Shown: positions 1 to 38,765 of the stretch, piece by piece
How positions within the stretch are numbered: the first letter of the stretch is position 1
Layout of the letters: each line of letters starts with the position of its first letter
Virus record (IMG/VR): IMGVR_UViG_2859827302_000005
Span: 1-40,732 of that record
DNA: 40,732 nt
Source: a virus
Taxonomy: Duplodnaviria; Heunggongvirae; Uroviricota; Caudoviricetes
Direction: 5' to 3' (one strand)
Notes under the pieces: generated by a model
Seen by the model: only the letters and a program-made list of their open reading frames with translations
Databases searched by the model: none
What the model was told of the DNA's origin: nothing
Made by a program: the position numbers and the translations under genes

Positions 1-171
1 TCAATAAATCCCATCATTGCGATCAACCTCATCCTTAACCATTGATGCGAGCAGTTCTTCCAGTTTCTGCGCTGACAGCTTTACCTGGTGATCTTCAGCA
101 TCTTCCCGGGCTATTGTGGTTCGCGCAGTGGCTGATTTTGCTGACATCACCACAGGGGGCAGACGGACCAT
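1..171 (-). CDS. hypothetical small protein (56 aa)
   Basis: ORF ending with a stop at window position 1-3; ATG at 171-169 preceded by GGAGG about 11 nt upstream. The longer 93-aa version in the ORF track overlaps the tfa-like remnant and is discounted. No family recognised. Confidence 0.3.
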   Translation of the reverse strand: MVRLPPVVMSAKSATARTTIAREDAEDHQVKLSAQKLEELLASMVKDEVDRNDGIY

Positions 172-233
172 TGAACCATGGCCTCCGGAACAAATAAGGG
201 CAAAAATAACAACCACTATCGAAAGCTCACAAA

Positions 234-554: not shown

Positions 555-622
555 TTAACCCCTTGTAATTCATCGCCATAATTGATTTAATTCACAAATA
601 AAACTATAACATGGTGAAATCA

Positions 623-1279
623 ATGAAAAAAAACACAGATGATGGGGCTAAAATTTACACACCACTTACCCTAAAGCTTTATGACTGGTGGGTTTTGGGA
701 GTATCAAATCGGCTTGCATGGGGATGTCCTACAAAGGAACACCTTCTTCCACACTTTCTGGAACATGTAGGTAACAACCATCTGGATATTGGTGTTGGAA
801 CTGGGTTTTACCTTACTCACGTACCTGAGAGTAGTCTGATATCTTTAATGGATTTGAACGAAGCTAGCCTGAACGCGGCATCTACAAGGGCTGGGGAATC
901 AAAAATTAAACATAAAATTAGCCATGATGTTTTTGAACCTTATCCCGCGGCGTTACATGGTCAATTTGATTCCATTTCCATGTTTTACCTTCTTCACTGC
1001 CTGCCTGGAAATATATCTACAAAAAGCTGTATAATACGCAATACGGCGCAGGCCTTAACTGACGATGGAACTCTATACGGAGCCACAATTCTTGGCGATG
1101 GAGTTGTGCACAATAGCTTCGGTCAAAAACTGATGCGCATTTACAATCAGAAAGGCATCTTTTCAAACACAAAAGATTCCGAAGAAGGCTTAACACATAT
1201 ACTCTCAGAGCATTTCGAGAATGTTAAAACCAAGGTTCAAGGTACTGTAGTAATGTTTTCCGCTTCAGGGAAAAAATAG
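623..1279 (+). CDS. class I SAM-dependent methyltransferase (moron; substrate unknown)
   Basis: Motif I HLDIGVGTGFY followed by an acidic beta-2 end (LMDLN). Visibly AT-rich, on the strand opposite to the phage late genes. GGTGA Shine-Dalgarno 5 nt before the ATG at 623; an alternative ATG lies at 611. Confidence 0.65.
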   Translation: MKKNTDDGAKIYTPLTLKLYDWWVLGVSNRLAWGCPTKEHLLPHFLEHVGNNHLDIGVGTGFYLTHVPESSLISLMDLNEASLNAASTRAGESKIKHKISHDVFEPYPAALHGQFDSISMFYLLHCLPGNISTKSCIIRNTAQALTDDGTLYGATILGDGVVHNSFGQKLMRIYNQKGIFSNTKDSEEGLTHILSEHFENVKTKVQGTVVMFSASGKK

Positions 1280-1319
1280 CATCCAACCGCAGCACGTTCT
1301 TGCTTAAGACGTGCTGCGG
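1271..1319 (-). terminator. putative intrinsic terminator downstream of tfa
   Basis: Perfect 11-bp stem ccgcagcacgt/acgtgctgcgg at 1287..1319, followed on the minus strand by a T-rich tract (ttggatgctatttttt). Confidence 0.4.
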
Positions 1320-1500
1320 CATAATCCCAATGATTACTCCCTGACAGGGTTCGTAGGCCACTCAATATCAGGTGCAGTTGATGTATCAACACGGTTCAGC
1401 AACACCCGATACTTTTTCCAGGCTTCCAGCAATGAGGTTTCTTCCTCCGTTGCAATTTCCAGATCTGCAGCATCCTGAAGCGGCGCAATATGCTCACTGG
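1285..1500. repeat. direct repeat copy B (3' end of intact tfa plus downstream hairpin)
   Basis: Homologous to 236..450; together the two copies flank the methyltransferase gene. Confidence 0.6.
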
Positions 1501-1918
1501 CTACCTGCATCAGGTTGTTTTTTGTTTCTTCCGCCTCCCGGATCCGGAACATTTTTTCTGCTTCCGTACCCTTCACCCAGGCTGTGCCGTTCCACTTCTG
1601 AAACTCCCCTTCCGGCGATAACCAGGTAACATTTTCCGGTAACGGACCGAGTTCAGAAATAAATAACTCGTCCCCTGACGCTACGTCATAAACCGTTTTA
1701 CCCCGATGGTCTTCAACGAGATGCCACGATGCCTCATCACTGTTGAAAACAGCCACAAAGCCAGCAGGAATATCTGGTGGTGCAATATCGGTACTGTTTG
1801 CTGGCAGACCTGTATGAGGCGGAATATATGCGTCACCTTCACCAATAAATTCATTAGTTCCGGCCAGCAGATTATAAATTTTTATGGTCCGTGCTTGTTC
1901 ACTCATTCTGAATGCCAT
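1334..1918 (-). CDS. tfa: tail fiber assembly protein Tfa (lambda orf-194 type)
   Basis: 194 aa, near-identical to lambda Tfa as I recall it (MAFRMSEQ...[12 protein letters not shown]). Its ATG overlaps the stf stop codon. Confidence 0.9.
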
Positions 1919-4893
1919 TATGCAAGCCTCACAATATAGTTAAATGCGATGTTTTTGACGGTGTTTTCCGCGTTACCAGCAGCGTTAACGGTGATGGTGT
2001 GTCCATGTGAACCAATCGCAACGGAGTGCGTATGCGCACCAATACCTACAGTATGTGCATGTGCGCCAGAACTTGCTGCAGTACCAGACAGCGAGTGGGT
2101 ATGAGCACCTGCTGACTGTGTCTGAATACGTTGATAATACGATCTACGGGAAGAAGTCCCCGGGCTTACTTGATACTGTGAATCCTGGACATAAGTGAAC
2201 CCACCGCCATCATAAAATGCTAACGCAGAACCGCCGCCTCCTGGCCAACGAATACCATTACCATGAGTATGATCACCGGCAGACCCCGTAGAGCCACTCA
2301 GACTGTGCGTATGCGCCCCGGTGTTATTCGTGGATTTGGTTCCGTAATCAAACGACGATGTGTTTTTCGTCCCCAAATCCGTACTGGATGCGCTGGCGCT
2401 GTGGGTGTGCGATTTAATGCCGTCCTGTTCCTGAGACAATACGGCACGACCACTGGCGGGTTTGCCCTTAATCGTCCAGCCACGCATATCAGGGATCACG
2501 CCTGACGGATAAGCGGCTGCAAGTTTCGGGTATGCAGATTTGTCAAAAGTCTGCCCCTGCATCAGGGCATAGCCAGACGGAACGGTATCTGATGGCCACG
2601 GGATTGGTGCGCCAGGCGGATAAAACTGCTCTGATGGCGTATAGAGTGCATAAACTGTACCGTCCGTTAACCCTTCCGGCTTATTAGCAGAATATGCTGG
2701 TGACGTATGAATCGTCACGCTGGCATTACTGGTATAATCCCATTGAATATTTACACCAGTCGCATAATTTCCGATTGCAACGTAAATATCGTAAGTATCA
2801 CCAGATGTATTGACCCAGGCAAAATTTGTAAACCCTGTCGATGTGCGCTGCCATAAAGCACCAGTAATCCCCTTCGGATTACCATTACCTGCACGCAAAA
2901 CAAGTTCAGATATACCTGCCTGTTGAGGTGACCCCACGTTAAATCCCGCACCACCAATCAACGTAATTGAAACAACAGAACTCGCCTGTGGCATGGTTAC
3001 CGTTGCTAATTTGAACCAACCAGCACCACCGCTGAATGACATTGTTGTTGAGTTAAGCGTACCAATATCTTTCGGCGTCAGTGTTATATCCGCTGAAAGC
3101 GCCTTACCATTCACCTTACGGGCAGAAGGTACCCGACCATTCGCATTATCATTAGCTGCTTTCACTGCTTTCGGTGTCGCGGCAAGCGTTTCAGATGCGC
3201 TGTTGGTTGCACTACTGAGCTGGACAATTCCTTTTTGTGCTGTCGTAGCGTCCTGAGCAGTATATTTCCCGTTAGCAAGGTCATAGGCTGCCTTTACCGA
3301 CTTTGGCGTTGCCGCCAGCATTTCAGATGTGCTGTTGGTCGCGTTGCTAAGCTGAACTATCCCTTTCTGTGCTGTCGTTGCATCCTGTGCGGTGTATTTC
3401 CCGTTAGCCAGCTCATACGCGGCCTTAACGGCTTTTGGCGTTGCCGCCAGTGACTCGGAAGTGCTGTTAGTCGCACTGCTGAGCTGTACTATCCCCTTTT
3501 TCGTCGTGCTCGCATCCTCAAGCGCCACGGCGGATGCAATATCCTCTGCCCGTTTTGCCGCTGTCTCAGCGCGCGTTGCCGCGGATTCCGCCGTACTTTT
3601 GCTCTGAGCTGCCGCCGTCGCACTGCCAGCTGCCTCTGTCGCCTTCGTGGATGCCGTCGTGGCGCTGCCCTTTGCTGCTGACGCCTGTCTGGTCGCCTCA
3701 TCTTTTGAAGCAGACGCAGATGATGCCGATGACGCCGCCGAACTGGCGGACGATGCGGCAGCCGTTTTTGAGGATTCTGCGCTGGTTTCCGACGCTTTCG
3801 CGTTCGTCTCGGATGTCTTCGCTGCGGAAGCAGACCTCGCTGCTGCGCTGGCCAGTACAGCGGCTTCGCCAGCCTTCGTTGTGGCTGTTGAAGCAGACGA
3901 TGCAGCACTTTCTGCAGATTTTCCGGCGGCGGTGGCACTGGCTGAGGCCTGCCCGGCACTTGTTGACGCGGCACTGGCAGATAATGCAGCCGCTGTTTTT
4001 GAGTCTGCCGCAGCTGAGGCGCTCTGTCCCGCTGCCGTTTCAGAAGACCTGGCGTTCGTCTCGGACGTTTTTGCCGCCTTCGCAGAATTTGCTGCCGCCG
4101 TTGCCGAGGAAGCTGCGCTGCTGGCGCTCGAGGCTGCGTTCGTTTCTGATGATTTTGCCGCCTCTTTTGAAGCCGACGCATCCCGTGCTGAAGTGGCTGC
4201 TTCTGACGCTTTCGTGGTCGCGGTGGATGCAGAAGTGGCTGCTGATTGTTGTGACGCTGCCGCATTCGTTTCTGACGTTTTCGCGGCACTGGCACTGGTA
4301 GCTGCCGCGCTTTTTGAGGACTCTGCAGCAGCAGCACTTTTCGATGCTTCACTGGCCTTTGTTGATGCCGCTCCTGCGCTGGAAGACGCTGACTGAGCCG
4401 ACGACGCGGCCTGTCCGGCTGACGTGCTGGCTGCGCGTGCTGAGCCTGCAGCATCAGTCGCATGGGTTGCCGCCTCACGGGCTGATGTGCGGGCATCGCT
4501 GGCTGACTTCTTCGCGGCTGCCGTGTTCTGTGCCACTGCGGACGCGTTACGCGCCACCTCTTCCACCATCAGTTCAAAACGGCGCAGTGCCTCTGGCCGG
4601 ACATCATCCTCCGTCATTGCACCGAGGAAATCATTCAGTGTGCCCGGCTTTGAGTCCTCATATACGGTGATAATCCCGGCGTGTGACGGCGGGAATCCCT
4701 CCACCAACAGACTGACGCTGTACTGACCATACTCGACGTCCATTGTATAACGCCCGGCTTCATCCGGATTTTCTGAGGCCACTGTGTTCACCACCACCGT
4801 GGTGCTGTTGCGCCTGGCCTTTAGCTGAATGGTGCAGTTTTGTATCGGCTTACCTGCACCATCTTTCAGTACACCTGAAATCAGTACTGCCAT
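1918..4893 (-). CDS. stf: side tail fiber protein Stf (StfR-like, 991 aa)
   Basis: Lambda Stf N-terminus ([32 protein letters not shown]). Long Ala/Ser/Thr-rich low-complexity shaft, three tandem 44-aa repeats, and a C-terminal tip with HTHSLSG/HxH repeats. Confidence 0.9.
3100..3500. repeat. three tandem ~132-bp repeats inside stf
   Basis: DNA repeat starts at about 3225, 3358 and 3489, encoding three copies of [44 protein letters not shown]. Confidence 0.5.
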
Positions 4894-4902
4894 ATTCCCC
4901 CC

Positions 4903-4931
4903 ACAAAAAAGCCCGCCTGAACCGGCGGGCT
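4903..4931 (-). terminator. intrinsic terminator downstream of lom
   Basis: Stem agcccgcc/ggcgggct with a 6-7 nt loop, followed on the minus strand by TTTTTTGT. Confidence 0.6.
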
Positions 4932-4957
4932 GTCATAACACTGTGTTACCTGGCTAA

Positions 4958-5557
4958 TCAGAATTTATAGCCGACACCAACGATGAAACTGTTGGTACGC
5001 CAGTCACCACTGCCGGAGCCTTCATAAGCAATATCAATGGCCACGGATTCGGTCGGGTTAAACTGCACGCCAGCCCCCCACGCCAGAGACGTGTTGCTGT
5101 GGCGACCGTCATCACTTCCGGTCAGCACATCGTGCGTTTTCCCCTTGTTGTCAGTTACACGGAGATAATCCCCGGAAAAAGTCGACACACGACTGTAAGT
5201 CACACCCGCCATCGCATACGCGCTGAACCATTCATTCACGCGCACAGACGGCCCCGCCATCACGCTGAACCAGCGGTTACGCACGGAATCTTCATGCCAG
5301 CGGGTATCGCTGTAATGCGTTTTTTGCTCATCTTTGGCATTGGCATAACTGAATGACGTCACCAGCCCCAGCGTGTCCGTAAACTCATAACGGTATTTCA
5401 CGTTAATCCCGTTCAGATCATCGCTGCCTGGCATATCAGTATGGGTCTGAAGATACCCGGCGCTTAGTGTGGACTGATGCTCTGCTGCGCTCGCTGGCAT
5501 ACCAGCGGCAACCAGCCAGACTACTGCGGACAGAATAACAGCACATAATTTACGCAT
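4958..5557 (-). CDS. lom: outer membrane protein Lom (Ail/Lom family)
   Basis: 199 aa with signal peptide and beta-barrel pattern ending ...FIVGVGYKF. Canonical position after J. Confidence 0.9.
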   Translation of the reverse strand: MRKLCAVILSAVVWLVAAGMPASAAEHQSTLSAGYLQTHTDMPGSDDLNGINVKYRYEFTDTLGLVTSFSYANAKDEQKTHYSDTRWHEDSVRNRWFSVMAGPSVRVNEWFSAYAMAGVTYSRVSTFSGDYLRVTDNKGKTHDVLTGSDDGRHSNTSLAWGAGVQFNPTESVAIDIAYEGSGSGDWRTNSFIVGVGYKF

Positions 5558-5624
5558 AATTACCTCTCGCTTTTCTGCAATAAAAAAGGCACCATTTCTG
5601 GTGCCCGTATCTGGGTTATAAAAT

Positions 5625-8600
5625 TCAGCTAATCGTGATGCCTGTAGTGGCTTTCTTCATCACCACAACCAGCAAATCGCTGATACTTGCTGTGGGATAC
5701 CAGTTATTTACCAGCCATGCTGACACCGAAAACTCCAGTGTCATGTGACCGTGACCGGCAGGCATATCAATAACGCCACTGTAAATCAGCGTATTATCCA
5801 GCGCGGTACGGTTATAAATTTCAGCACCGTTTTTCCGCACTATCAGACGGCATGAGGAGTAAATATCAGTATGCTCTCTCTCATGCTTAGCGCCACTGAA
5901 TGCCACCGCCGGAATAACAATTTGCCGGTCAAACGGCTGATCGTCATAAACCCTGACGGTAATGGTCCCTGATGGCCACCGCTCCGGTGCACGGGAGTCC
6001 CGGGGGAAAGCTTTGCCCACTGTTTTAACGAGATCGCCTTCAATCTGGTTGGCGGACAGTTTTCCCAGAACCCGACAGTTCTCGTTAATCGTGACGTTGT
6101 TGAGCGTCCCGGAGTTCGCATTCACGTTACCGCTAATATCGGCATTTTTCGCCGTCAGCCGCCCGTCCGGTGTCAGGGAAAATGCCGGAGGATTACCGCC
6201 GCTGGTAATGGTGGGAGCCGTCAGGCGTTTCAGGAACACGTCGTTCATGAATATCTGATCGCCCTGACCAACAAACATCGGCTTTGTGTTGCCATTCGCA
6301 GGATTAATCATCGCAATCCTGTCTGCCGCCAGCAGCACCTGACTCTGCATTCCTGCTGGCGTATTCTCAATACCGGCACCGATACCCGCAATATAAAGGC
6401 GTCCGTCCTTCATCTGTTGCAGCTTCACAGCCCACATGCTGTTCAGATTATTATTTGTATCAACCTGAACCTTCTGTATCTGCTGGATTGCCGCACTCTG
6501 GTCTTTCAGTTTCTTATTGACAGTCTGCGTGATTTCATTGCTGACATCCGTAATGGACGTCCTGATTTCAGCCAGGTCAGGCGCAAGCTGACCTTTATCA
6601 ATCTGCGTCCACAGCTCCTGAGCCAGATGGGTTTTCCCTATCTCGCCTTTGAAAAAATCCAGATAACCGGATGCATCATCACTCGGCTGACCAACAGCCT
6701 CCACGAATGCCGATTTGCCAACGGTGTTCACACTGCGAACGTAAAAATAATAATCATGGCCCGGTTTGATATTGATACTGGCGGCTATCCAGTACAGCCC
6801 CGTGCCAAGATAGCGCGCTGTGGTTTCAACCTTCCTGATATCGGTAATCCGCTTTTCCGAAAACCAGAACTCAAACTGTACCGTCGGGTCATAAACGGCA
6901 AGATGCGGCGTGGCGGTTATCTGAAAATAGCCCGACGTCAGCTCAATCCGCGACGGCGCTGCCGGTGCGGCAATCCGGAACGATACCGACGCCGGATCGC
7001 CCTGCTGTCCCCACGCATTTACCGCCCGGACCGTCAACATGTAACGCCCCAGCGCCAGCTGCCTGAAGCGGTATGTGGTTTCCGTCGTCCGGGCCGTGCT
7101 GACCAGCCGCTCACTGCCATCGTCCGCTGTCACGGTCAGGCGAAGCAGGAAGCTCACGCCCTTCACCACCTTCGGCGTGTCCCAGCGGGCCAGTACCTGA
7201 TACTCCCCGCTGTCTGCGGTGACTTCGGCAGTCAGGTGCTGCACCGCTGGCGGCGTGACACCATTCACCGTGCCGCTCTGGTCGCCGTCAAAGTGCGCCC
7301 CGTTATCCACGATGGCTTCTTTTTCCGGTACATGCTGCACGGCGGTGATGGCATACGTGCCGTCATCGTTCTCACGGATACTCACGCAGCGGAACAGGCG
7401 CTGGCGCAGCGTCGGCAGCTTCAGCCCCCACACGCTGTATTCGGCAACGCCGTCAGGAACACGGCTCACTTTCACCTTCACGCCGTCGGTGACGGACTGG
7501 ACCTCCACGCTGACCGGATTCCCCTGTCCGTCAACCAGGCTTATCAGCGTGGTGCCGGAGGATGGCAGCGTGATTTCACGGTCGAGCGTCAGTGTCCGCG
7601 TCTGGCTGTTCACCGCCAGCACGCGCCCGCCGATGCTGATACCCGCATAGTCATCATCACAGATTTCAATGACATCGCCCGGTACATGGCGAAGCCCTTC
7701 TGCACCCACGCTGAAGTCCACGGTCTGCGTTTCCAGCAGCTCCGTTTTAATCAGCCACAGCCCGGCGCGGTGTGCCTGCCCCCGGCTGGTACAGCCAAAG
7801 GCATCCATCTTCGTGACGTTACGACCGTAACGGGCAATGGCCTGCGTATCTTCAACAAGCTCTGTCGCCGTCTCCCAGCCGTTATCCGGGTCAATCCAGT
7901 TCACCTCAACGGCATTATGGCGGTCCTTCAGGGCGCTGAAGCTGTAGCGGAACGGCGCGCCATCATCCGGCATCACCACATTACTGCGGTTATAGGTCCA
8001 CACCTTATCCGACGGTCGGTCCTGCACGAACGTCAGCGTCTGCCCGTTCCATACCGGCATACAGCGCATCGCCGAACAGAAATCACTGAGCACATCCCAC
8101 GCCTTACGCTGTGTGGTCAGGTAAGCGTTACAGGTGATGCGCGGCTCCGTGCCACCAAAGCCATCCGGCACTGACTGATCGCAATACTGGCCGATGACAT
8201 ACAGCGCCCATTTGTCCACATCCGCCGCACCAAGACGTTTCCCCATGCCGTAGCGCGGGTGGGTCAGCATATCCCACAGACACCATGCCATGTTGTTGCT
8301 GTATGCCGGTTTAAACGTCCCGTCCCAGATACCGCTGTATTGCCGCGTCTGCGGGTTATAGTTCGATGGCACCTGCAGAATGCGCCCGCGAAGATGATAA
8401 TTACGGCTCACCTGCTGGCTGCCGAACTGTTCCGAGTCCACCTGCACGCCGACCAGTGCCGTGTTCGGGTAGCACTGTTTCACATCGATGATTTCAGTGT
8501 ATGACGACCAGAGCGTTTTGTTCTGCAGCTGGTCTGTGGTGCTGTCCGGCGTCATCCTGCGCATCCGGATATTAAACGGGCGCGGCGGCAGGTTACCCAC

Positions 8601-9104
8601 CACCACCGAGGCCAGATACTGCGAGGTGGTTTTGCCCTTAATGGTGATGTCTTTTTCCGTCACCCAGCCACCGTTACGTTGTATCTGAACCAGCAGGCGG
8701 ACTTCCGACGGATTCCTGTCACCCTTTGAGGTGGTTTCCACCAGTGCCTGCACACCGAAGGTAAAGCGCAGACGGTCGATGTTTGCAGACGTGATGGTCC
8801 GGGTGATCGGCGTGTCGTATTTCACTTCCGTACCCAGCACCGTCTCGGAACCGGAGGATTCAAATCCCTCCGGCGGTGTCTGCTCCTGCTCACCTGCCCG
8901 GAACACCACCGTAACACCGGAGATGTTGGTATTCCCCTCACTGTCCAGCACCGGTGTACTGTTCAGCAGCACGCTTTTTAATCCATCCACCGGACCTTCA
9001 ATCGGCCCTTCGCTGATGGCATCGATCACACTCAGTAATTGCGTGGATTTCAGGTTGTCCTTCGCTTCGCGCGGGGTATGCCCCTTACTGCTTCCTTTAC
9101 CCAT
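5625..9104 (-). CDS. J: tail tip / host specificity protein J
   Basis: 1159 aa; N-terminal about 800 aa near-identical to lambda J as I recall it. The C-terminal receptor-binding region (ends ...[14 protein letters not shown]) differs from my recollection of lambda J, so the receptor may differ. Confidence 0.9.
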
Positions 9105-9114
9105 TCCTCACACT

Positions 9115-9146
9115 CCATAAACAACAAAGCCGCCCAAAAGGCGGCT
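9115..9146 (-). terminator. putative intrinsic terminator between lipoprotein moron and J
   Basis: Stem agccgcc/ggcggct with a short loop, followed on the minus strand by TTGTTGTTTATGG. Confidence 0.45.
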
Positions 9147-9170
9147 CATGAGTTACGGCAGGATTAACTA

Positions 9171-9509
9171 TTATTTACATGCATTAACACTATCAGCAAA
9201 AATTTTTGGCGTTAATGCTGGTACACGTTCATAAAGAGTAAAACTACTGCCATTTCCTGCTTTTTTGATATCAAGCACAATATCATATCCCCCCATAGCC
9301 TGTGGAACTAAAAGGCTTACCCCATTCTCAATAGGAAGGGATGTTATAGGTGTTCCATTACCAGCCCATTGTCTGGATATGCAGCCTGACAATTCATCAA
9401 TATTTTTTAATGAATTACCTTCCATTACAGGTTTTCCGGATTTTACGTAATCCAAAGATTTACATCCTGTTAAGGCAATAATCGTGCAGAATAAAATCGT
9501 TTTGTTCAT
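9171..9509 (-). CDS. putative lipoprotein (moron between I and J)
   Basis: 112 aa from the ATG at 9509; the ORF-track start at 9521 is a TTG. Signal peptide with lipobox LTGC (MNKTILFCTIIALTGC). AT-rich; lambda has no gene at this position. Confidence 0.6.
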   Translation of the reverse strand: MNKTILFCTIIALTGCKSLDYVKSGKPVMEGNSLKNIDELSGCISRQWAGNGTPITSLPIENGVSLLVPQAMGGYDIVLDIKKAGNGSSFTLYERVPALTPKIFADSVNACK

Positions 9510-9581
9510 ATAGCTAACCAATAGAATAATTATCAGTGTTCGATATAAATATTAAATCAGTTAGAACATGAGTAAATAATA

Positions 9582-10230
9582 TTACCGCCCAATTACCACA
9601 ACCTGACCACCATCCCCTTCATCTGCCGTGCTGATCTCCTGAGATGCCACACGTGACCCCACGCGCATTTCACCGTACAGAACAGGCAGGACATTGCCCT
9701 GGGCAACCATGTTATCCAGTGAGGAGAAATAGGTGTTCTGTTTGCTGTTTGCCGTTATCCGTTGTCTGTGTACGTGGAGTTTTGGGTTTAGGGGCCAGCA
9801 TCTGTGCGACACCACCAAGCGTCATCGCTGCCCCCATAGAAAAGAGAATGTTACTGAAAGCGATACTGATTCCTGGCATCCAGATTGCCGTAGCAATCAG
9901 CGCCGCACCCAGCACTGCCTGAAAAACACCACCACTTTTGGCACCCGCCAGACGCGGTACGATGTGGATCACGGCACCATTTGCCAGCGGCTCATTAAGA
10001 CGGGCAGATAATTCGTTTTCGCCTGCATCACGCCCGGCAATGCGCACCTGATACCAGCCCTCATTCAGTTTCTGGCGAAACGCCGGGAGCTGTGTGGCCA
10101 GCGCCCGGATGGCTTCGGCCCCCGTTTTCACACGAAGGTCGATGCGGCGACCAAATCGTTGTAAATCCCCGTAAAGGCAGATGCGTGCCATGCCTGGTGA
10201 CGCCAGAGGGAGTGTGTGCGTCGCTGCCAT
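9582..10230 (-). pseudogene. I: tail assembly protein I, frameshifted by a 7-bp tandem duplication
   Basis: N-terminal 172 aa match lambda I and then stop prematurely. The lambda-like C-terminus (NTYFSSLDNMVAQGNVLPVLYGEMRVGSRV...VVVIGR) continues in another frame to 9582. Plus-strand TGTTTGC occurs twice in tandem at 9739..9752. Confidence 0.8.
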
Positions 10231-10871
10231 TTGTCGGTGTACCTCTCTCGTTTGCTCAGTTGTTCAGGAATATGGTGCAGCAGCTCGCCGTCACCACAGT
10301 AAATGGCGGCATGATTCGGCACCGATGAACCAAAACAGCACAGCAGCACATCGCCCGGCTGCGCCGCTGACAACGGCACCTGATACAGCCCTGTGGCCTC
10401 CAGATTATCCAGATAGAGATTCTGACCGTGACGCCACCAGTCATCCCCGCGATGAAAATCCGGCATCTCAATCCCCGCCAGATGATAAGCATCCCGGAAC
10501 AGCGTGTAACAGTCCGTCACCCCGTGCTCAAAGCGCCGCCCGGTGAGATGCGGCACACAGCGGAACTTGTGAATCGCCCCCCGGCAGACCAGCCACCACG
10601 GCAAATCACTCTGCACCTGCAGCCGCCGGTCAGCCTCACTCAGCCAGGGCAGACCACCGGGATGACTGTGGACCAGTGCCACAATCTCACCCTGCATCTC
10701 TGCCTGCAGCCAGTCCTCCGGAGCCATCCGGAAATAATCCTCCGGCTCACCGGAAATATTCACGCAGGGAAAATATCTTTCCCCCTCCGGCGCTCTCACC
10801 ACGAAGCCGCACGACTCCGCTGGCGCACATCGCCGGGCGTGCGCCAGAATCGCTGATTCTGTCTCTGTCAT
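10128..10871 (-). CDS. K: tail assembly protein K (NlpC/P60 and JAB/MPN-like)
   Basis: Strong match to lambda K (MTETESAILAHARRCAPAESCGFVV...). Start taken at the internal ATG at 10871. Confidence 0.85.
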   Translation of the reverse strand: MTETESAILAHARRCAPAESCGFVVRAPEGERYFPCVNISGEPEDYFRMAPEDWLQAEMQGEIVALVHSHPGGLPWLSEADRRLQVQSDLPWWLVCRGAIHKFRCVPHLTGRRFEHGVTDCYTLFRDAYHLAGIEMPDFHRGDDWWRHGQNLYLDNLEATGLYQVPLSAAQPGDVLLCCFGSSVPNHAAIYCGDGELLHHIPEQLSKRERYTDKWQRRTHSLWRHQAWHASAFTGIYNDLVAASTFV

Positions 10872-10875
10872 GGGA

Positions 10876-11574
10876 TTACTGCGAAAGTTTGTTAATGGAA
10901 AGGAAGCCGCCAAAGTTGCCGACGTTATTGCGAAACTTACAGCCGCTCAGGCATTTGCTGCATTTATCCTTCGTGATATCGGACGTCGGCTGGTCATATT
11001 CATCCGCGACTGCCGGACCGTGATAACCGCACTCATCACCGCGATAGGTCCAGGTGCAGGTGTTGGCCAGCATGATACGTCCCGGAAAAACAGCGCCATC
11101 CGTTTCCGTCGGCGTGGACAGTACAAAGGAGGCACTCACCGCGCTCAGTTCGCTGCACTGCTCGATGCGCCAGCGGCTGATCACCTCCTGCTCCGGATCG
11201 GCGTCACTGTTTCCGTTGACGAAGTTCACCGCATCCAGAAAACGGGCGTAAACCTTACGCCGGACCACCGTTCCGCCGACCAGACTCTGCATATCTTCCA
11301 CCATACCGGTGACCATACCGTACAGGTTAGAAACCGTCAGCGTGGGGCGCGTACTGGTGCCTTTGCCATTCAGTTCAAAACCACTCCCCTGAATGGGATA
11401 CGGCTGATACTGTCGCCCCTGCCAGGTGACCGGCTCACCTTTTTCGTTCTGCTCATTACAGAAAAAATAACGTTCTCCACCGACCTCTGTCAGATCGATT
11501 TCCCAGAGCACCACGCTGGCCGACTGCTCCGCACGGGTGCATTCATTCAGTGTTTCCTGCCGGATATCCTGCAT
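10876..11574 (-). CDS. L: minor tail protein L
   Basis: 232 aa, lambda L-like (MQDIRQETLNECTRAEQSASVVLWEIDL...). Confidence 0.9.
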   Translation of the reverse strand: MQDIRQETLNECTRAEQSASVVLWEIDLTEVGGERYFFCNEQNEKGEPVTWQGRQYQPYPIQGSGFELNGKGTSTRPTLTVSNLYGMVTGMVEDMQSLVGGTVVRRKVYARFLDAVNFVNGNSDADPEQEVISRWRIEQCSELSAVSASFVLSTPTETDGAVFPGRIMLANTCTWTYRGDECGYHGPAVADEYDQPTSDITKDKCSKCLSGCKFRNNVGNFGGFLSINKLSQ

Positions 11575-11903
11575 CAGTTCACCACCTGTTCAAACTCTGC
11601 GCTGAACTCAACACGCAGCATACTGACCCGCGACGACCATTTTGCGCAGGTCACCTTTATCTGCCGCCACTCATAAGGCGGCGTCCACAGAAAGGATTTC
11701 CAGCCCCCGTGCTCAGCCAGAAACGACTCAAGCGCCGTGGCCTCCCAACGGGGAACAGAAAGCGTCACGCTGTACGTTTTCAGGTCGGCATTCAGCCCGG
11801 CAGGCGCTCGCTGGGAATAGCCATCACCAAAGCGCACTTTCCTGACGGAAGGGGCTGAAGCCACATCCATACCGGGTTTCACTTTCCAGCGGAAGGTCTT
11901 CAT
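11574..11903 (-). CDS. M: minor tail protein M
   Basis: 109 aa, lambda M-like. Confidence 0.9.
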   Translation of the reverse strand: MKTFRWKVKPGMDVASAPSVRKVRFGDGYSQRAPAGLNADLKTYSVTLSVPRWEATALESFLAEHGGWKSFLWTPPYEWRQIKVTCAKWSSRVSMLRVEFSAEFEQVVN

Positions 11904-14473
11904 CGTCCACCTCCGGAGAACAGACCACCATCGCGCATCTGTGCCTGAATTTCATCACGGGCACCCTTGCGGGCCATGTCATACACTGCCTTCAGCATCT
12001 GTGGACCTGGCAGACCATTCGTACCGTCGTTCTGAATCACCACGTTGTTGTTCTGCTCAAATCTGATACCCTCTGAACGCCGCATTTGCGCCGGACTTCC
12101 GGTGCCACCGACATAACCGCCGGTGGCATAGCCGCGCATCAGCCGGTAAAGATTTCCCACGCCAATCCGGCTGGTCGCCTCCTTCGTGAAGACAAACTCC
12201 CCGCGATGAACAATCCCCGCAGGTTCATATTTACCCCCCGTCCCCGTAAATCCCCCGGTCGCGAAATGGAAGTTCGCCGCCGCAGCCTGAATGGCTGTAC
12301 CGCCTGACGCGGATGCGCCGCCACCAACAGCCCCGCCAATGGCGCTGCCGATACTCCCGACTATCCCCACCATCGCCTGCTTCAGAAAAATCTCTGTCAG
12401 CATGGACAGCACAGAACGGGTGAAACCACGCCAGTTCTGTTCGCTGCCGGTCAGCATCGCTGCCATATTCTGTACAATACCGTCAAAGGTCTGCGTGGCC
12501 GCGTTTTTAACCTGCGAAAAACTGTCCGTCGCACTTTCCGCCCACTCGCCCCAGCCGGACTTCATCCCGGCCATCCAGCTTCCACGAAGCTGCTCCTCCG
12601 CAGACCAGGTGTTCTTCAGTGCAGATGTGGCCTTCGCCAGCGCAGCCGGATTATCACCGTACACCTCACGAAGGCGCTGCTCTTCCGACTCCCGCTGCGC
12701 CTGACGGTCGGTGAGTCCGCGTGCTTTTGCGCTGATTGCCGCCTGCTTCGCGCTCTGCTGCTGTTCAAACCGCGCCGCCTGCTGTGCCAGCTCATTCAGC
12801 CGTTTCTGGTGTTCAATCTTGTCGCCCAGCTCAGCCAGCTGGCGTTTGTACTCCAGCGTTTCTTTCTCATGGGCCAGCAGGGATTTTTCCTGCTCAGATA
12901 ACTGCCGTTTCGTGGCGGCCTCTTTCAGGACCACATACTGATTTTCCGCTTCCCATAAATCCCGGCGCTGCTGGCTGATTTTCTCATTCACACCGCTGTG
13001 TTTTTCCAGCGTCCTGAGCTCGGTTTCAAGCGCCAGCATGGCTGCATGCGCCCGGTCTTCCTGGCGCTCACCGGCAGACACCTTCACACCTGACGGCTTT
13101 TTCAGCGTCGATTCATAATCCTTTTTTGCCGACGCCATCAGCGTGTTGTAATCCGCCTGCAGGATTTTTCCGTCTTTCAGGGCCTTATTCAGCTCTTTCT
13201 GACGGGCGGTATATTTATCCAGCGGCGTCTGCAGGCGCTCATACGCCTTCTGCGCCTCTCCGGTATACTTCAGCTGTGACGCCTCACGCTCAGCCCGGTC
13301 CCTTGCCGCCAGTTCACCGGCTTTTTCCATATCCGACTGCAGCGTGGCCGCTGCCAGACCCAGACGGGCATTTTCCCGGTCATCCCATGCCCCCTGAAGG
13401 TTCGCACGAAAAGAGGAGGTCTTTCCCCGGCGCTGGCTCCGGCTCTGGTACCACTGCCATTTTTTATCCGCCTCATCAAATGCCTTCTGCGCACTGGCGA
13501 GCATATCCGCTGAGGATTCAGGACGACCGATATCCAGAATGGCATCCCACATCGATTTGAATGCCTTCCCTGTTTTATCCGCCCAGGTCTCCAGTGTTCC
13601 CATGTTTTCTTTCAGGCGACGGGTCTGCTCATCAAAGCCTTTCGTGGCGATATCGTTCGCCGCCTGCAATGCCCCGGCCTCGTCTCCGGAACGCTGCAGC
13701 TGTGCAACATACGCAATCTGCTCTGCCGTCACGTTACGGAACTGGCGCGCCATCGCCATCAGTCCCGACGTCGGGTCAGTGGTCAGCTTCCCGAAGGCTT
13801 CAGCGACTTTATCCACCTCCACACCGGATGCAGACGCAAAACGCGCGACACTCTGGTTGATGGCATCAAACTGTTCACCACCACGCACACCGGCATTCAC
13901 CAGGGCTGCCAGTGACTCTCTCGCCTGGTTAAACGTCAGCCCTGCTGCCTGCCCGGCTCTTGAGAGAGTCAGCATACGATCGGCAGTCAGTCCGGACTGA
14001 TTACCGGAAAGAACCAGGGTTTTATTAAACGCTGAAAGCGTGGAATCTCCCTGGTACCAGGCGTACACCAGCGCACCTGTCGCCACCGCCAGCGAGGTGA
14101 CTCCGACCATCGGCAGGGTGATCGCACCGGCGAGCCCCCTGAACATGGGGATCATCCCGCCGAAGGAGTCCTTCACCTGACCGCCCTGTTGCAGCAGGAT
14201 CAGCCAGGGATTCTGACCACCGGCAAGCTGCGTGGCGATATCCGTAAACTGTGCGGGCAGGGTTCGCATGGCCGCTTTATACTGCCCGACGGAAATCCCG
14301 GCTTTTTGTGCAGCCAGCGCCTGGCGGCTCAGGCCCTGTTCAACAGCACTGGCGGTTTTTCTGGCGTCGGTATCCATACCTGAAAAATGACGCCTTACCC
14401 GGCTCATCTGCTCATCGAAACGGACAGCATCCAGACTCAGGTCAATAACAAGATCACCAACCGGCTGGGACAT
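11900..14473 (-). CDS. H: tail tape measure protein H
   Basis: 857 aa, lambda H-like, with coiled-coil middle and Gly-rich C-terminus. Confidence 0.9.
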   Translation of the reverse strand: MSQPVGDLVIDLSLDAVRFDEQMSRVRRHFSGMDTDARKTASAVEQGLSRQALAAQKAGISVGQYKAAMRTLPAQFTDIATQLAGGQNPWLILLQQGGQVKDSFGGMIPMFRGLAGAITLPMVGVTSLAVATGALVYAWYQGDSTLSAFNKTLVLSGNQSGLTADRMLTLSRAGQAAGLTFNQARESLAALVNAGVRGGEQFDAINQSVARFASASGVEVDKVAEAFGKLTTDPTSGLMAMARQFRNVTAEQIAYVAQLQRSGDEAGALQAANDIATKGFDEQTRRLKENMGTLETWADKTGKAFKSMWDAILDIGRPESSADMLASAQKAFDEADKKWQWYQSRSQRRGKTSSFRANLQGAWDDRENARLGLAAATLQSDMEKAGELAARDRAEREASQLKYTGEAQKAYERLQTPLDKYTARQKELNKALKDGKILQADYNTLMASAKKDYESTLKKPSGVKVSAGERQEDRAHAAMLALETELRTLEKHSGVNEKISQQRRDLWEAENQYVVLKEAATKRQLSEQEKSLLAHEKETLEYKRQLAELGDKIEHQKRLNELAQQAARFEQQQSAKQAAISAKARGLTDRQAQRESEEQRLREVYGDNPAALAKATSALKNTWSAEEQLRGSWMAGMKSGWGEWAESATDSFSQVKNAATQTFDGIVQNMAAMLTGSEQNWRGFTRSVLSMLTEIFLKQAMVGIVGSIGSAIGGAVGGGASASGGTAIQAAAANFHFATGGFTGTGGKYEPAGIVHRGEFVFTKEATSRIGVGNLYRLMRGYATGGYVGGTGSPAQMRRSEGIRFEQNNNVVIQNDGTNGLPGPQMLKAVYDMARKGARDEIQAQMRDGGLFSGGGR

Positions 14474-14867
14474 ATCTCACACCTCCCGGAATCCCCGCTG
14501 AAGCCATCATTAATGCGGCATCATCCACCATGACATCCGCCACATCCGCAGACGATAAAATATCGCGCCCTCCGTCCCCACCGAACCGGACGCCTCCGGC
14601 AAGTCCTGCCGCTTTCTGCATCAGCATTTTGTCCTCATCCGGCCTCTCCACCTGCTCTTCCTCATGCCGGGGGACAAGCAGACTGAAATCAGAGGGATGC
14701 ATATCCGGATCGCAAAAAAACAGGCTGAGTACAGCGTACGTCAGCCCGGAAAAATGCATATCCAGCTGGGTATCCTGAAAATAATGCGTGCGGTAAAAAC
14801 GGTGCCAGTCGGCATATTCGGTGGATGTCATCCCGGCAAGCATGGCGCGCCAGTCGGGTCTCCCCAT
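14454..14867 (-). CDS. T: tail assembly protein T (T portion of the G-T fusion)
   Basis: The -1 frame downstream of the G slippery site encodes ...GKVFDGELNFALRLAREMGRPDWRAMLAG... Confidence 0.8.
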   Translation of the reverse strand: MGRPDWRAMLAGMTSTEYADWHRFYRTHYFQDTQLDMHFSGLTYAVLSLFFCDPDMHPSDFSLLVPRHEEEQVERPDEDKMLMQKAAGLAGGVRFGGDGGRDILSSADVADVMVDDAALMMASAGIPGGVRYVPAGW

Positions 14868-14893
14868 CTCACGCGCCAGTCTGAGGGCAAAGT

Positions 14894-15325
14894 TCAGCTC
14901 GCCGTCGAAGACTTTCCCGCAGAAAAATCATCATCAGTCAGCGTGTTATTTTTCGCCACTTCAGTAATATCAGTATCCGGACGAACAGCTTCGATCATCC
15001 CGGACAGGCACAACACCACGTCTTCCGCCCGGGCAATGGCATCGGCAGGCCAGGTGGTGAGCACTTCCTGCTCTATCTTCATCACGGCCTCATTCATTGA
15101 CGGTGACTGCGTTTTCTGTGGATGGTTATGCCACAGGGACATCGCCACCAGAAACGCGCCGGTTCTGACGAGATCTTCCACGCTTACCTGCAGGTTGCCG
15201 CAGGATTCTGCCTGTTCTGCACGCCGTTTCAGGAGGGCAAGATGCTCGATACGCTGCAGCGCAGACAATTCGGAAAGCGTGACAGACACACCGTTATATT
15301 CAAATTGTTCTGTTTTCAGAAACAT
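14894..15325 (-). CDS. G: tail assembly chaperone G
   Basis: 143 aa, lambda G-like (MFLKTEQFEYNGVSVTLSELSALQRIEHLAL...). Confidence 0.9.
   Translation of the reverse strand: MFLKTEQFEYNGVSVTLSELSALQRIEHLALLKRRAEQAESCGNLQVSVEDLVRTGAFLVAMSLWHNHPQKTQSPSMNEAVMKIEQEVLTTWPADAIARAEDVVLCLSGMIEAVRPDTDITEVAKNNTLTDDDFSAGKSSTAS
14912..14918 (-). other. programmed -1 ribosomal frameshift slippery heptamer G GGA AAG (G to G-T)
   Basis: Plus-strand ctttccc is gggaaag on the minus strand, in the X XXY YYZ frame near the G C-terminus (…DDDFSAGKSSTAS). Confidence 0.7.
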
Positions 15326-15338
15326 GTATTACCTCCGT

Positions 15339-15944
15339 TTACCCTGCAGCGCCCGCTTCAGTAACGGTGACTTCAGCCACTGCGGCGAACTGACCATTTC
15401 CGCTCACCACAGGGATCTGCACCTTACCTGTCGCCACGCCGTTTACCGTAATTGTCATATCTTTCACACTAATGGTGGCTTTCGACGGATCGGCGGAAAC
15501 CGCTCTGAACGTCTTGTCGGTTGCACTTTCCGGCTCAAAAGAAACCGTCAGGGTGGTTGTTTTCCCTTTTGCCACCGTACCGGATGTCGGCGTCATCTTA
15601 ATCGCACTGACCGGCGTAATTTTGCTGCGTTCTTCCGCTACAGAAGGTTTACCCACGTTAGTGACTTTCACCGTGCGGGTGATCACTTCTTTCGCCGTCA
15701 CGGCCTTACCGATACTGCTGACCCAGCCACGAAACACATCCACCGTGCCATTCGGAAAACGGATTTTATAGGCCCGGACATCGCCGCTTTCAAACCAGCC
15801 TATAAGCCCTTTCTGGCCTTCCTCTCCCGGTTTCCAGGCCAGCGTAAAACTGGTATCACCTGCAGATTTCTGCCCCTGCCCGGTCGCGGTCCAGTCCGCG
15901 TCTTCATCATCCAGGTAGTTATCATCGTAGGATTCTGCCGTCAT
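15339..15944 (-). CDS. V: major tail tube protein V, N-terminally shortened relative to lambda V
   Basis: 201 aa, aligning with lambda V from about residue 51 (TAESYDD...). The ATG lies 7 nt after the U stop, with an in-frame TGA 11 codons upstream. Confidence 0.8.
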
Positions 15945-15951
15945 CTCGCCC

Positions 15952-19176: not shown

Positions 19177-20649
19177 TCACCGTCTTCTGACGCCTGTGAC
19201 ACGCTCCCCCTGGACCGCAGCCGGTGAATGGTTCGCCATGAAATGTTCAAACAGGGCGGTTGTGGATGCAGAGACCGGTTCTGCCTTACCTGATCCCGCA
19301 GCCAGCACAGCCCGGGCGCTCTCCACGGTCATTCCCGGGCAGGCAGCCAGCTGTTCAGCCTGCGCCTCAGCCCCTTTTGCCTCATCCAGTGCCATGATCT
19401 GATCACGGAGTGATGGTCCGGCATTCGCCTGCGGTGAAGCAGCCAGGATCGGGCGGGCTTTTTCCACCGTCATCTCCGGCATCGCCGCCAGCGTTGCTGC
19501 CAGTTGTTCACGACCGTTCGCTTCTTCACACGCCATAATGCGATCGGCTTCACTCTGCGCGGATGCCACCGGCTGCTGCGGTGCCGCCGCGGCCAGAATC
19601 GCCCGGGCCTGTTCAACGCTCATGCCCTGTTGCCCTGCCAGCATCGTGGCAAGCTGTTCACGTCCTTTCGCTTCCTGGCATGTCAGGATCCCCATCACTC
19701 GCTGGTTCTCCTGCACGGCGGCTTCCGTTGCAGTTAATTGCGGCATAGTGCCTCCTCTGACATTACTGTTCAGCGCCGTGGCCATCACACTGATGGCATC
19801 CGACGCATTGATTAATTCATCCGCCAGCCCGGCCTCAATGCCGGACTGACCTTCAAAAACGGCGGCCTCTGTTCCCGTGACCGCATCCACAGACAACCCG
19901 GTATACATCGCCACTTTTTCGGCAAACATCCGGTGCGCCGCATCAATCCGCTGCTGCATATCCTGGCGAACCTCTGCCGGCAACGCTTCAAACTGATTGC
20001 CATCCACCTTGTGCGCCCCGGCATAAATCAGCGTGATATCCACACCGGCCTGCGCCAGATGACCGGCATAGCTGACATGGCTCATCATCACGCCAATGGA
20101 GCCGATACGGGATGTCTGGGTAACCAGCCGTCGGGAGCAGGCCGACGCCAGCAGCATGGCTGCAGAACAGGCCGTGTCATTGCACAGTGCCCAGACCGGC
20201 TTCTGCTGACGGAGGCGGTAAATCATGTCAGCGCAGTCAAACGCGCCGGCGGCCTGCCCGCCCGGACTGTCAATGTCCAGCAGTATGCCCCGCACCTGGC
20301 TATCTGCCATTGCCTGCTGAAGACAGGCGACAATGCCGTCATAGCCAGTCATTCCGGAAAATGGCCGCATCCCCCCCAGCCGGTGCACCAGCGTGCCGGT
20401 CACCGGCAGTACCGCAATACCGTTCACCACCCGGTAAACACGGGCCGGTCGTTTACCTCCGGCCATGTACTCGTCCGTTTCAGCCAGCATTCCGGGAGCA
20501 TCAAGCTGTACCTGCTGTTGTGGTACCGAAAGACTTGCTGCGCCCATCTCGCGCCCGAGCGCGCAAAAGAAAACCCGCGCATAGGCGGGCTCCAGAAGCA
20601 GCGGTTCATTGAATGCTGCGGCAATAATGTGTGAAAGATTACGTCTCAC
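19177..20649 (-). CDS. C: head maturation protease C (S49 family) with nested scaffold Nu3
   Basis: 490 aa. N-terminal ClpP/S49-like protease region; C-terminal scaffold region with three tandem ~45-50 aa repeats. Confidence 0.85.
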   Translation of the reverse strand: MRRNLSHIIAAAFNEPLLLEPAYARVFFCALGREMGAASLSVPQQQVQLDAPGMLAETDEYMAGGKRPARVYRVVNGIAVLPVTGTLVHRLGGMRPFSGMTGYDGIVACLQQAMADSQVRGILLDIDSPGGQAAGAFDCADMIYRLRQQKPVWALCNDTACSAAMLLASACSRRLVTQTSRIGSIGVMMSHVSYAGHLAQAGVDITLIYAGAHKVDGNQFEALPAEVRQDMQQRIDAAHRMFAEKVAMYTGLSVDAVTGTEAAVFEGQSGIEAGLADELINASDAISVMATALNSNVRGGTMPQLTATEAAVQENQRVMGILTCQEAKGREQLATMLAGQQGMSVEQARAILAAAAPQQPVASAQSEADRIMACEEANGREQLAATLAAMPEMTVEKARPILAASPQANAGPSLRDQIMALDEAKGAEAQAEQLAACPGMTVESARAVLAAGSGKAEPVSASTTALFEHFMANHSPAAVQGERVTGVRRR

Positions 20650-38754: not shown

Positions 38755-38765
38755 TGGATTTGCCC

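What the first reader, a model, noticed from the sequence alone, without database searches (positions are those of the whole stretch)
9738..9752. Gene I inactivated by a 7-bp tandem duplication
Plus-strand TGTTTGC occurs twice in tandem at 9739..9752 (GCAAACA twice on the coding strand). Removing one copy restores the lambda I reading frame (…TDNGKQNTYFSSLDNMVAQ…). As it stands, I terminates after 172 aa and the conserved C-terminus lies in another frame. I is required for tail assembly, so the tail module is probably non-functional unless this is a sequencing artefact.
Basis: seen in the sequence. Interest (0 to 1): 0.5.

Follow-up and report, generated by a model that had tools for sequence, protein, structure and literature searches.

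The report
Frameshifted tail gene I in Shigella prophage
A 7-base tandem duplication breaks the reading frame of tail-tip gene I in a decaying lambda-like prophage of Shigella dysenteriae; the mutation is real and shared by a lineage, and it is an ordinary case of prophage decay.

Summary
Window 9738..9752 reads CTGTTTGCTGTTTGC, a heptamer twice in tandem. On the minus strand it shifts the frame of the lambda gene I homologue after codon 162. The ORF ends at 172 aa, and the last 51 conserved codons (NTYFSS…VVVIGR, 9582..9737) lie in another frame. Deleting one copy restores a 213-aa protein that aligns end to end with lambda gpI.

It is not an assembly artefact. The window is 100% identical to Shigella dysenteriae CP026828.1. 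The same duplication is present in all nine loci that reach this site, from eight S. dysenteriae assemblies. None of about 1,500 complete E. coli genomes that cover the site has it, and neither do IMG/VR, GTDB representatives or JGI metagenomes. The otherwise identical single-copy allele is on 979 contigs.

The lost segment is the part of gpI that anchors the protein in the gpJ hub of the lambda tail tip, and gene I is essential in lambda. Loss of function is therefore the best reading.

This prophage is damaged elsewhere too. Major tail gene V has lost 49 codons, and there are two IS2 copies and a third IS3-family element. A sister prophage (CP026807.1) shares those lesions but has an intact I, through a 218-bp mosaic patch over the site. 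This is routine prophage decay and mosaicism, of low novelty.

The parts
9738..9752 (-). Tandem duplication of a heptamer (GCAAACA x2 on the coding strand; the period-7 tract is 15 nt). It is the frameshifting insertion in gene I.
   Evidence: Read directly. It is the only difference from E. coli loci L001 and L002 in the I region. It is present in L003-L011.
9712..10230 (-). Truncated gene I ORF of 172 aa. Residues 1-162 are authentic: a Lambda_tail_I / ubiquitin-like N-domain, a hydrophobic segment and most of the 'plug'. Ten out-of-frame residues (QTEHLFLLTG) and a stop follow.
   Evidence: PF06805, residues 14-97, E 2.8e-24. Alignment to lambda gpI.
9582..9737 (-). Displaced 3' part of gene I: 51 codons plus stop (NTYFSS…VVVIGR*), now in the +1 frame relative to the upstream part. 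It corresponds to lambda gpI residues 173-223.
   Evidence: Lambda residues 135-223 are the part resolved in the tail tip (PMC10721106; PMC11101478).
10128..10871 (-). Gene K homologue (Prok-JAB + NlpC/P60), apparently intact, overlapping the start of I as in lambda.
   Evidence: PF14464, PF00877. Gene calls, and annotation of the relatives.
5625..9104 (-). Gene J homologue (central tail fibre / tip attachment protein), 1159 aa, intact. This is the partner to which the lost gpI C-terminus binds in lambda.
   Evidence: The exact protein is named Shigella dysenteriae host specificity protein J.
9171..9509 (-). Extra 112-aa ORF between I and J with a lipoprotein-like N-terminus (…IIALTGCKS…). It is absent from lambda but conserved in the related prophages; function unknown.
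   Evidence: exact protein on 114 contigs. phrog_914, unknown function. No Pfam or NCBIfam hit.
15339..15944 (-). Major tail protein V homologue lacking its first 49 codons (201 aa instead of 250). A 147-nt deletion between CGA(T/G)ATG direct repeats puts Met50 behind the original ribosome-binding site. This is a second tail lesion in the same prophage.
   Evidence: The 201-aa product is on only 3 contigs, all S. dysenteriae. V is intact (250 aa) in the other duplication carriers L007-L009 and L011.
27608..28938 (-). IS2 copy inserted between the SASA-family esterase gene and holin S, that is, inside the late transcription unit upstream of the lysis, head and tail genes.
   Evidence: IS2 TnpA/TnpB, E 4e-83 and 5e-219; end sequence TGGATTTGCCCC.
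38755..40085 (-). Second IS2 copy, in the early/nin-side region of the prophage.

Best explanation
The window is a lambda-like prophage at the ompW/trp locus of Shigella dysenteriae (identical to CP026828.1). Its tail-tip gene I carries a spontaneous 7-bp tandem duplication. The duplication arose once on an otherwise intact, common I allele and was inherited by a group of S. dysenteriae strains.

The insertion shifts the frame after residue 162, which corresponds to lambda gpI residue 172. The product keeps the N-terminal Lambda_tail_I domain, the hydrophobic helices and most of the plug. It loses the 51 C-terminal residues, which in lambda form the beta-strands that thread through the gpJ hub domains and hold the gpI trimer in the tail tip under the tape-measure C-terminus. 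Without that anchor the protein should not be incorporated, so this prophage cannot by itself build a tail tip (inferred). Gene I is essential in lambda.

The mutation is one step in ordinary prophage decay. The same element has also lost the 5' end of V and has acquired IS2 insertions. Patchy recombination with other lambdoid prophages reshuffles these lesions and can erase them.

Shown: the duplication, its reality across assemblies, the frame consequences, the homology and the other lesions. Inferred: loss of function, single origin, and direction of the recombination events.
For: The sequence and frames were read and recomputed. The repaired protein aligns 1-213 to lambda gpI 1-223 at E 1.4e-107, and the Pfam Lambda_tail_I domain is present.

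The closest E. coli prophages L001 and L002 differ in the 681-nt I region only by the 7-nt insertion. The exact single-copy 200-aa product is on 979 contigs. The window equals CP026828.1 at 100% over 20,131 nt. The duplication is present in L003-L011, from eight S. dysenteriae assemblies, and the truncated product is deposited as EFW51927.1 from S. dysenteriae CDC 74-1112. The I region is identical in all carriers but one SNP, inside a roughly 3-kb identical block in most carriers, which argues for a single origin.

The duplication is absent from 5,426 complete E. coli genomes: the best full-length match of a 60-nt probe is 88.3%, which is the 7-nt gap. It is also absent from GTDB species representatives, IMG/VR and JGI metagenomes. 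The single-copy 27-mer gives at least 120 IMG/VR hits.

For function: lambda gpI residues 135-223 form the trimeric plug or tripod bound to gpJ by three beta-sheet augmentations (PMC10721106). The plug is residues 159-175, and the following beta-strands pass through gaps in the gpJ hub domains (PMC11101478). Lambda I is scored essential in the literature, and its CRISPRi knock-down gives an EOP of 2.6e-5 (PMC10695390).

For the decay context: the V deletion and the IS2 copies.
Against: There are no functional data for this prophage. The truncated protein keeps about three quarters of gpI, and no experiment on C-terminal truncations of gpI was found. The CRISPRi result for lambda I is confounded by polarity on J.

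The stop codon of the truncated ORF is followed one base later by an in-frame ATG (UAACAUG). That ATG opens the last 42 codons, so some C-terminal peptide could be made by reinitiation. Other lambdoid prophages in the same genome could supply gpI in trans; this could not be examined from the window. Raw reads were not inspected; the case against an artefact rests on concordant independent assemblies.
Confidence: 0.9

Rival explanations
1. Sequencing or assembly artefact: the real genome has one heptamer and gene I is intact.
For: Only that small indels are a common assembly error and that no reads could be inspected here. The duplication is found nowhere outside a small set of assemblies.
Against: The identical 14-nt tract is present in eight assemblies: two complete chromosomes (CP026828.1, CP026840.1), a 3.27-Mb contig, the older CDC 74-1112 draft and four short-contig drafts. 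A 7-nt non-homopolymer duplication is not a typical platform error. Carriers differ from each other elsewhere, so they are not copies of one record.
Confidence: 0.02
2. The lesion is functionally bypassed. One route is a ribosomal +1 shift between the duplication and the stop codon. The other is termination-reinitiation at UAACAUG, which would make a separate 42-aa C-terminal anchor peptide. Either way enough gpI activity would remain for tail assembly.
For: A +1 shift anywhere in the 30 nt between the duplication and the stop would restore the frame. The stop of the truncated ORF lies one base before an ATG that opens MVAQGNVLPVLYGEMRVGSRVASQEISTADEGDGGQVVVIGR.
Against: By inspection of the sequence, there is no known +1 recoding motif (no prfB-like CUU UGA with an upstream Shine-Dalgarno), and only a weak GGA precedes the ATG. 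The arrangement is absent from every related phage or prophage, whereas programmed recoding sites are conserved. A split protein would uncouple the plug and membrane helices from their anchor and would lack residues 163-171.
Confidence: 0.03
3. Reversible switch: the tandem heptamer is lost and regained by slipped-strand mispairing, so that tail production is phase-variable.
For: Short tandem duplications can revert precisely. One sister prophage (L142) sharing the V deletion and the IS2 insertion has a single heptamer.
Against: In L142 the single copy sits inside a 218-bp patch with 54 differences (window 9730..9947). That is replacement by another I allele, not precise excision. All nine loci that reach this site show the same state. 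Two copies of a 7-nt unit are a poor slippage substrate compared with true contingency repeats. The prophage has other fixed lesions, so a switch would have nothing to control.
Confidence: 0.02

Closest known systems
Bacteriophage lambda tail tip assembly protein I (gpI; PDB 8IYK/8IYL/8K35/8XCG, 9E7M)
   Same: Same gene position (L-K-I…J) and the same N-terminal Lambda_tail_I domain. After repair the protein is collinear with gpI over its full length, at E 1.4e-107, and the C-terminal 60 residues are almost identical.
   Different: As it stands the gene is interrupted after the equivalent of lambda residue 172. The hydrophobic middle is 10 residues shorter than in lambda. An extra 112-aa ORF separates I from J.
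The frameshift in lambda stf (laboratory lambda lost its side tail fibres through a frameshift mutation)
   Same: A frameshift in a tail gene of a lambdoid phage that removes the downstream part of the protein (mentioned in PMC10721106, and PMC10695390).
   Different: stf is dispensable and the phage stays viable. I is essential in lambda, so here the expected outcome is a tail-defective prophage.
Defective lambdoid prophages of E. coli and Shigella (IS-riddled, frameshifted, mosaic prophage pools such as those described for E. coli O157 Sakai; from my own knowledge, not checked here)
   Same: Several independent lesions in one element (frameshift in I, deletion in V, IS2 insertions) and patchy exchange with related prophages.
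   Different: Nothing in kind. This is a specific, apparently undescribed allele in S. dysenteriae.
Programmed -1 frameshift between tail chaperone genes G and T of lambda-like phages
   Same: A frame change inside the same tail operon. The G and T homologues lie at 14894..15325 and 14454..14867.
   Different: The G-T shift is conserved in all relatives. The I frame change is a private insertion absent from all relatives and needs a +1 shift with no recognisable signal.

Membership tests
Lambda gpI / tail tip assembly protein I (Pfam PF06805 Lambda_tail_I) | N-terminal Lambda_tail_I domain | tested here: met
   PF06805, residues 14-97, E 2.8e-24, 85.8 bits against a cut-off of 23.8.
Lambda gpI / tail tip assembly protein I (Pfam PF06805 Lambda_tail_I) | Continuous ORF including the C-terminal tip-anchoring segment (lambda residues about 135-223) | tested here: not met
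   The ORF stops at 172 aa. The equivalents of residues 173-223 are in another frame. The feature is met only after removing one heptamer.
Lambda gpI / tail tip assembly protein I (Pfam PF06805 Lambda_tail_I) | Position in the tail operon between K (JAB + NlpC/P60) and J | tested here: met
   The order M-L-K-I-(112-aa ORF)-J was confirmed by domains and by the annotation of relatives.
Lambda gpI / tail tip assembly protein I (Pfam PF06805 Lambda_tail_I) | Required for, and incorporated into, the tail tip | not testable with these tools
   Known for lambda only. There are no data for this prophage.
Frameshift pseudogene (real mutation, not artefact) | Intact orthologues differ by the indel alone | tested here: met
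   L001 and L002 are identical over 681 nt except for the 7-nt gap. The intact product is on 979 contigs.
Frameshift pseudogene (real mutation, not artefact) | Reproduced in independent assemblies | tested here: met
   Nine loci from eight assemblies carry it.
Frameshift pseudogene (real mutation, not artefact) | Signs of relaxed constraint after the lesion (further substitutions) | tested here: inconclusive
   No further change in 681 nt in 8 of 9 carrier loci and one SNP in L008. The event is too recent to judge.
Programmed ribosomal frameshift / recoding site | Frame change conserved among homologues | tested here: not met
   Absent from all E. coli, phage, IMG/VR, GTDB and metagenome sequences searched.
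Programmed ribosomal frameshift / recoding site | Recognisable slippery or stimulatory motif | tested here: not met
   Inspection of the 30 nt between the duplication and the stop (CAA ACA GAA CAC CUA UUU CUC CUC ACU GGA UAA) shows no known +1 motif. This was by eye only.

The most novel reading that the evidence does not exclude
The frameshift does not kill the gene. Termination-reinitiation at UAACAUG would yield two polypeptides: a 172-aa N-fragment (ubiquitin-like domain, membrane helices, plug) and a 42-aa C-terminal anchor. Together these, or together with gpI from a co-resident prophage, would still support tail-tip assembly. That would show that the covalent link between plug and anchor in gpI is dispensable.
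Probability: 0.03. Interest if true: 0.4.

Novelty: already known. Interest (0 to 1): 0.1.

Why it matters
It matters little beyond annotation. Gene I at 9582..10230 should be annotated as a frameshifted pseudogene, and this S. dysenteriae prophage should be treated as tail-defective. In CP026828.1 that conclusion holds twice over, because V is also truncated.

The comparison gives a small, clean illustration of how lesions in resident lambdoid prophages are inherited, combined and overwritten by short recombination patches. All four combinations of I and V states exist, and a sister prophage carries a 218-bp replacement exactly over the duplication.

The heptamer duplication could serve as a lineage marker for a group of S. 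dysenteriae strains.

Tried and rejected
- Exact look-ups of the 172-aa and 159-aa truncated products found nothing, because gene callers used a later start. The 139-aa call was found through the neighbouring J protein.
- Scans for the duplication junction gave zero hits in GTDB species representatives, IMG/VR and JGI metagenomes. This is informative only as absence. A single-copy control worked.
- A look-up with the Nu1 protein, meant to fetch the late-operon side of other carriers, returned only unrelated E. coli prophages, because that protein is too widespread. The 490-aa C-gene product worked instead.
- Literature look-ups for the accession numbers gave no strain information. The Casjens and Hendrix lambda review is not held. 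A search for the classical amber-mutant literature gave only the CRISPRi essentiality table.
- Rejected readings are an assembly artefact, programmed recoding and a phase-variable repeat. The reasons are given under the rival explanations.
- I considered whether the +1-nt difference in the C/Nu3 gene (490 versus 501 aa) is another inactivating lesion. This is left open. The 490-aa form is on 97 contigs and is named an ordinary S49 family peptidase by its sources, while nearly all relatives have 501 aa.

Full report
**1. The observation.**
The plus strand at 9738..9752 reads CTGTTTGCTGTTTGC. TGTTTGC occupies 9739..9745 and again 9746..9752. On the minus strand an ORF runs from the ATG at 10230 to a TAA at 9712 and encodes 172 aa ending …PRTQTTDNGKQQTEHLFLLTG*. 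A second frame (9582..9737) encodes NTYFSSLDNMVAQGNVLPVLYGEMRVGSRVASQEISTADEGDGGQVVVIGR*. Deleting one heptamer joins the two into a 213-aa protein.

A perfect tandem heptamer alone is not beyond chance. The window has two such loci (five start positions), against 2.8 +/- 2.1 positions in shuffles. The case rests on the comparative evidence below.

**2. What the gene is.**
The ORF carries Pfam Lambda_tail_I (PF06805, E 2.8e-24). The gene upstream carries Prok-JAB plus NlpC/P60, as lambda K does. The repaired protein aligns over its whole length with lambda gpI from the tail-tip structures 8IYK, 8IYL, 8K35 and 8XCG (E 1.4e-107), and its C-terminal part aligns with the 90-residue gpI chains of 9E7M.

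The surrounding gene order matches annotated E. coli prophages inserted at ompW next to the trp operon. It runs terminase, portal, C, D, E, FI, FII, Z, U, V, G, T, H, M, L, K, I, a 112-aa ORF, J, lom, and tail-fibre genes.

**3. Real mutation or artefact?**
Among 5,426 complete E. coli genomes, the best matches to the 681-nt I region are 99.0% identical over 674 nt. That is identical except for a 7-nt gap. A 60-nt probe centred on the duplication finds no full match in the 1,535 genomes that cover it; the best is 88.3%, again the 7-nt gap.

The exact J protein of the window led to Shigella dysenteriae records. The window is 100% identical to CP026828.1 over 20,131 nt. All nine loci that reach this site carry the duplication and none has the single-copy form. 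They come from eight assemblies:
- GCA_002950015.1
- GCA_002950155.1 (CP026840.1)
- GCA_002968235.1
- GCA_000193895.2 (CDC 74-1112)
- GCA_028435205.1
- GCA_013997375.1
- GCA_047667435.1
- GCA_049894525.1

These assemblies differ from one another elsewhere in the prophage, so they are independent witnesses.

The duplication junction is absent from GTDB species representatives, IMG/VR and JGI metagenomes. The single-copy 27-mer gives at least 120 IMG/VR hits, and the intact 200-aa product is on 979 contigs.

The duplication is a real mutation restricted to a group of S. dysenteriae strains. The I region is identical in all carriers apart from one SNP in L008, and in most carriers it sits in a roughly 3-kb block free of differences. 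This points to a single recent origin.

**4. Consequence for the protein.**
The frame is lost after residue 162, which equals lambda residue 172. In lambda virions, gpI residues 135-223 form a trimer in the lumen of the tail tip. The trimer supports the C-terminal coiled coil of the tape-measure protein. [quoted passage not shown] A third resolves residues 134-222 bound to the tape-measure C-terminus (PMC12617516).

The truncated product therefore keeps the N-domain, the helices and most of the plug, but loses every strand that anchors gpI to gpJ. Gene I is listed as essential in lambda, and its knock-down lowers plating efficiency to 2.6e-5 (PMC10695390; that assay is polar on J).

Loss of function is thus a strong inference. 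It has not been demonstrated for this prophage.

**5. Context: a decaying, mosaic prophage.**
Several further lesions appear relative to the closest E. coli prophage (L002, 99.4% identity over window 1..15951):
- **V deletion.** The window lacks 147 nt at the 5' end of the major tail gene V. The deletion lies between CGA(T/G)ATG repeats and leaves a 201-aa protein that starts at Met50.
- **IS2 in the late operon.** An IS2 copy lies between the SASA-family esterase gene and holin S, at 27608..28938.
- **More IS elements.** A second IS2 lies at 38755..40085, and the start of a third IS3-family element lies at 40430.
- **C/Nu3 variant.** One extra base near the 3' end of the C/Nu3 gene gives 490 instead of 501 aa.

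The V deletion is not present in the other duplication carriers L007-L009 and L011, where V is 250 aa. Conversely, CP026807.1 (L142) shares the V deletion, the IS2 insertion and the 490-aa C gene with the window, with only 87 differences in 21.5 kb. Yet it has a single heptamer and an intact 213-aa I.

Of those 87 differences, 54 are packed into window 9730..9947, across the duplication site. This chimeric I allele has no match above 96.1% in complete E. coli genomes, whereas the window's backbone allele has exact matches. The patch therefore looks like the derived state, that is, a short gene-conversion tract from another lambdoid I gene.

All four combinations of I state and V state exist. 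Differences between carriers are clustered in patches, for example in H at 12.2..13.9 kb and in J. Recombination among resident lambdoid prophages has evidently reshuffled these lesions. Which event came first cannot be settled from these loci.

**6. Rivals.**
- **Artefact.** Rejected, see section 3.
- **Programmed recoding.** The frame change is not conserved in any relative, and the 30 nt before the stop show no known +1 motif.
- **Reinitiation.** The stop codon is followed one base later by an ATG (UAACAUG) that opens the last 42 codons. A restart peptide is conceivable, but it is preceded only by a weak GGA and would be uncoupled from the plug. I give this about 3%.
- **Phase variation by slippage.** The only single-copy relative is explained by a replacement patch rather than precise excision, and the element has other fixed lesions.

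**7. Comparison with what is known, and verdict.**
This is lambda gene I, inactivated by a textbook class of spontaneous mutation, inside the kind of IS-ridden defective lambdoid prophage that is typical of Shigella. The truncated product is already deposited as EFW51927.1, 'Phage tail assembly protein I', from S. dysenteriae CDC 74-1112.

Novelty and interest are low. The useful outputs are a corrected annotation, a lineage marker, and a small example of lesion shuffling and repair by recombination among prophages.

Noticed in passing
window 15339..15951 (V gene 5' end; junction about 15942..15951): A 147-nt deletion between CGA(T/G)ATG direct repeats removes codons 1-49 of the major tail protein V and places Met50 behind the original ribosome-binding site (201 versus 250 aa). 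It is present in CP026828.1, CP026807.1 and a few drafts or Logan assemblies, but not in the other I-duplication carriers.
   Followed up: yes
L142 (CP026807.1) 20420..21062, equivalent to window 9730..9947: A sister prophage sharing the V deletion, the IS2 site and the 490-aa C gene has an intact I gene. It owes this to a 218-bp patch with 54 differences exactly over the duplication site. The chimeric allele has no match above 96.1% in complete E. coli genomes. This looks like gene conversion from another lambdoid I gene that overwrote, or pre-empted, the frameshift.
   Followed up: partly
window 27608..28938 and 38755..40085; also 40430..40732: Two IS2 copies and the start of a third IS3-family element. 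The first IS2 sits between the SASA-family esterase gene and holin S, inside the late transcription unit, where it might be polar on lysis, head and tail genes. Polarity was not assessed.
   Followed up: partly
window 9171..9509 (-): A 112-aa ORF with a lipoprotein-like signal (…LTGCKS…) is inserted between I and J. It is absent from lambda and conserved in many E. coli and Shigella prophages (exact protein on 114 contigs). It matches phrog_914 of unknown function and has no Pfam or NCBIfam hit. It may be a moron gene, for example a superinfection-exclusion lipoprotein; that is speculation.
   Followed up: partly
window 19177..20649 (-), extra base at 19211: The C/Nu3 (S49 peptidase/scaffold) gene has one extra base near its 3' end relative to most relatives, giving 490 instead of 501 aa with an altered C-terminus. 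This allele is on 97 contigs (Shigella and some E. coli). Whether it impairs head assembly is unknown.
   Followed up: partly
L009 (S. dysenteriae CDC 74-1112, AERM01000035.1) 11028..14506 and 19615..20420: In this duplication carrier J is split into 791-aa and 368-aa ORFs, which is either a further frameshift or an error of the older draft. The tail-fibre region is different, and next to it lies a gene with reverse-transcriptase plus TIR domains, which may be a defence gene.
   Followed up: no
window 12.2..13.9 kb (H), 5..8.9 kb (J), 16.0..16.5 kb (Z/U): Differences between the window and the other S. dysenteriae and E. coli copies of this prophage are clustered in patches (for example about 60 differences in H at 12.2..13.9 kb), with kilobases of identity in between. 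There is also a 42-nt in-frame length polymorphism in Z (177 versus 191 aa). This is the pattern of mosaic recombination.
   Followed up: partly
window 9711..9717 (-): The stop codon of the truncated I ORF and an in-frame ATG of the displaced C-terminal segment form UAACAUG. This arrangement could allow termination-reinitiation of a 42-aa peptide.
   Followed up: partly
window 31777..31792: The only other perfect tandem heptamer in the window (AATAAAC x2) lies in an AT-rich stretch. There is no indel at this site relative to L002, so it is not a private duplication.
   Followed up: partly
window 611..1279 (+): A class I SAM-dependent methyltransferase-like gene (phrog_2132) is embedded among tail-fibre-assembly gene remnants at the prophage end. 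It is also present in the E. coli relatives.
   Followed up: no
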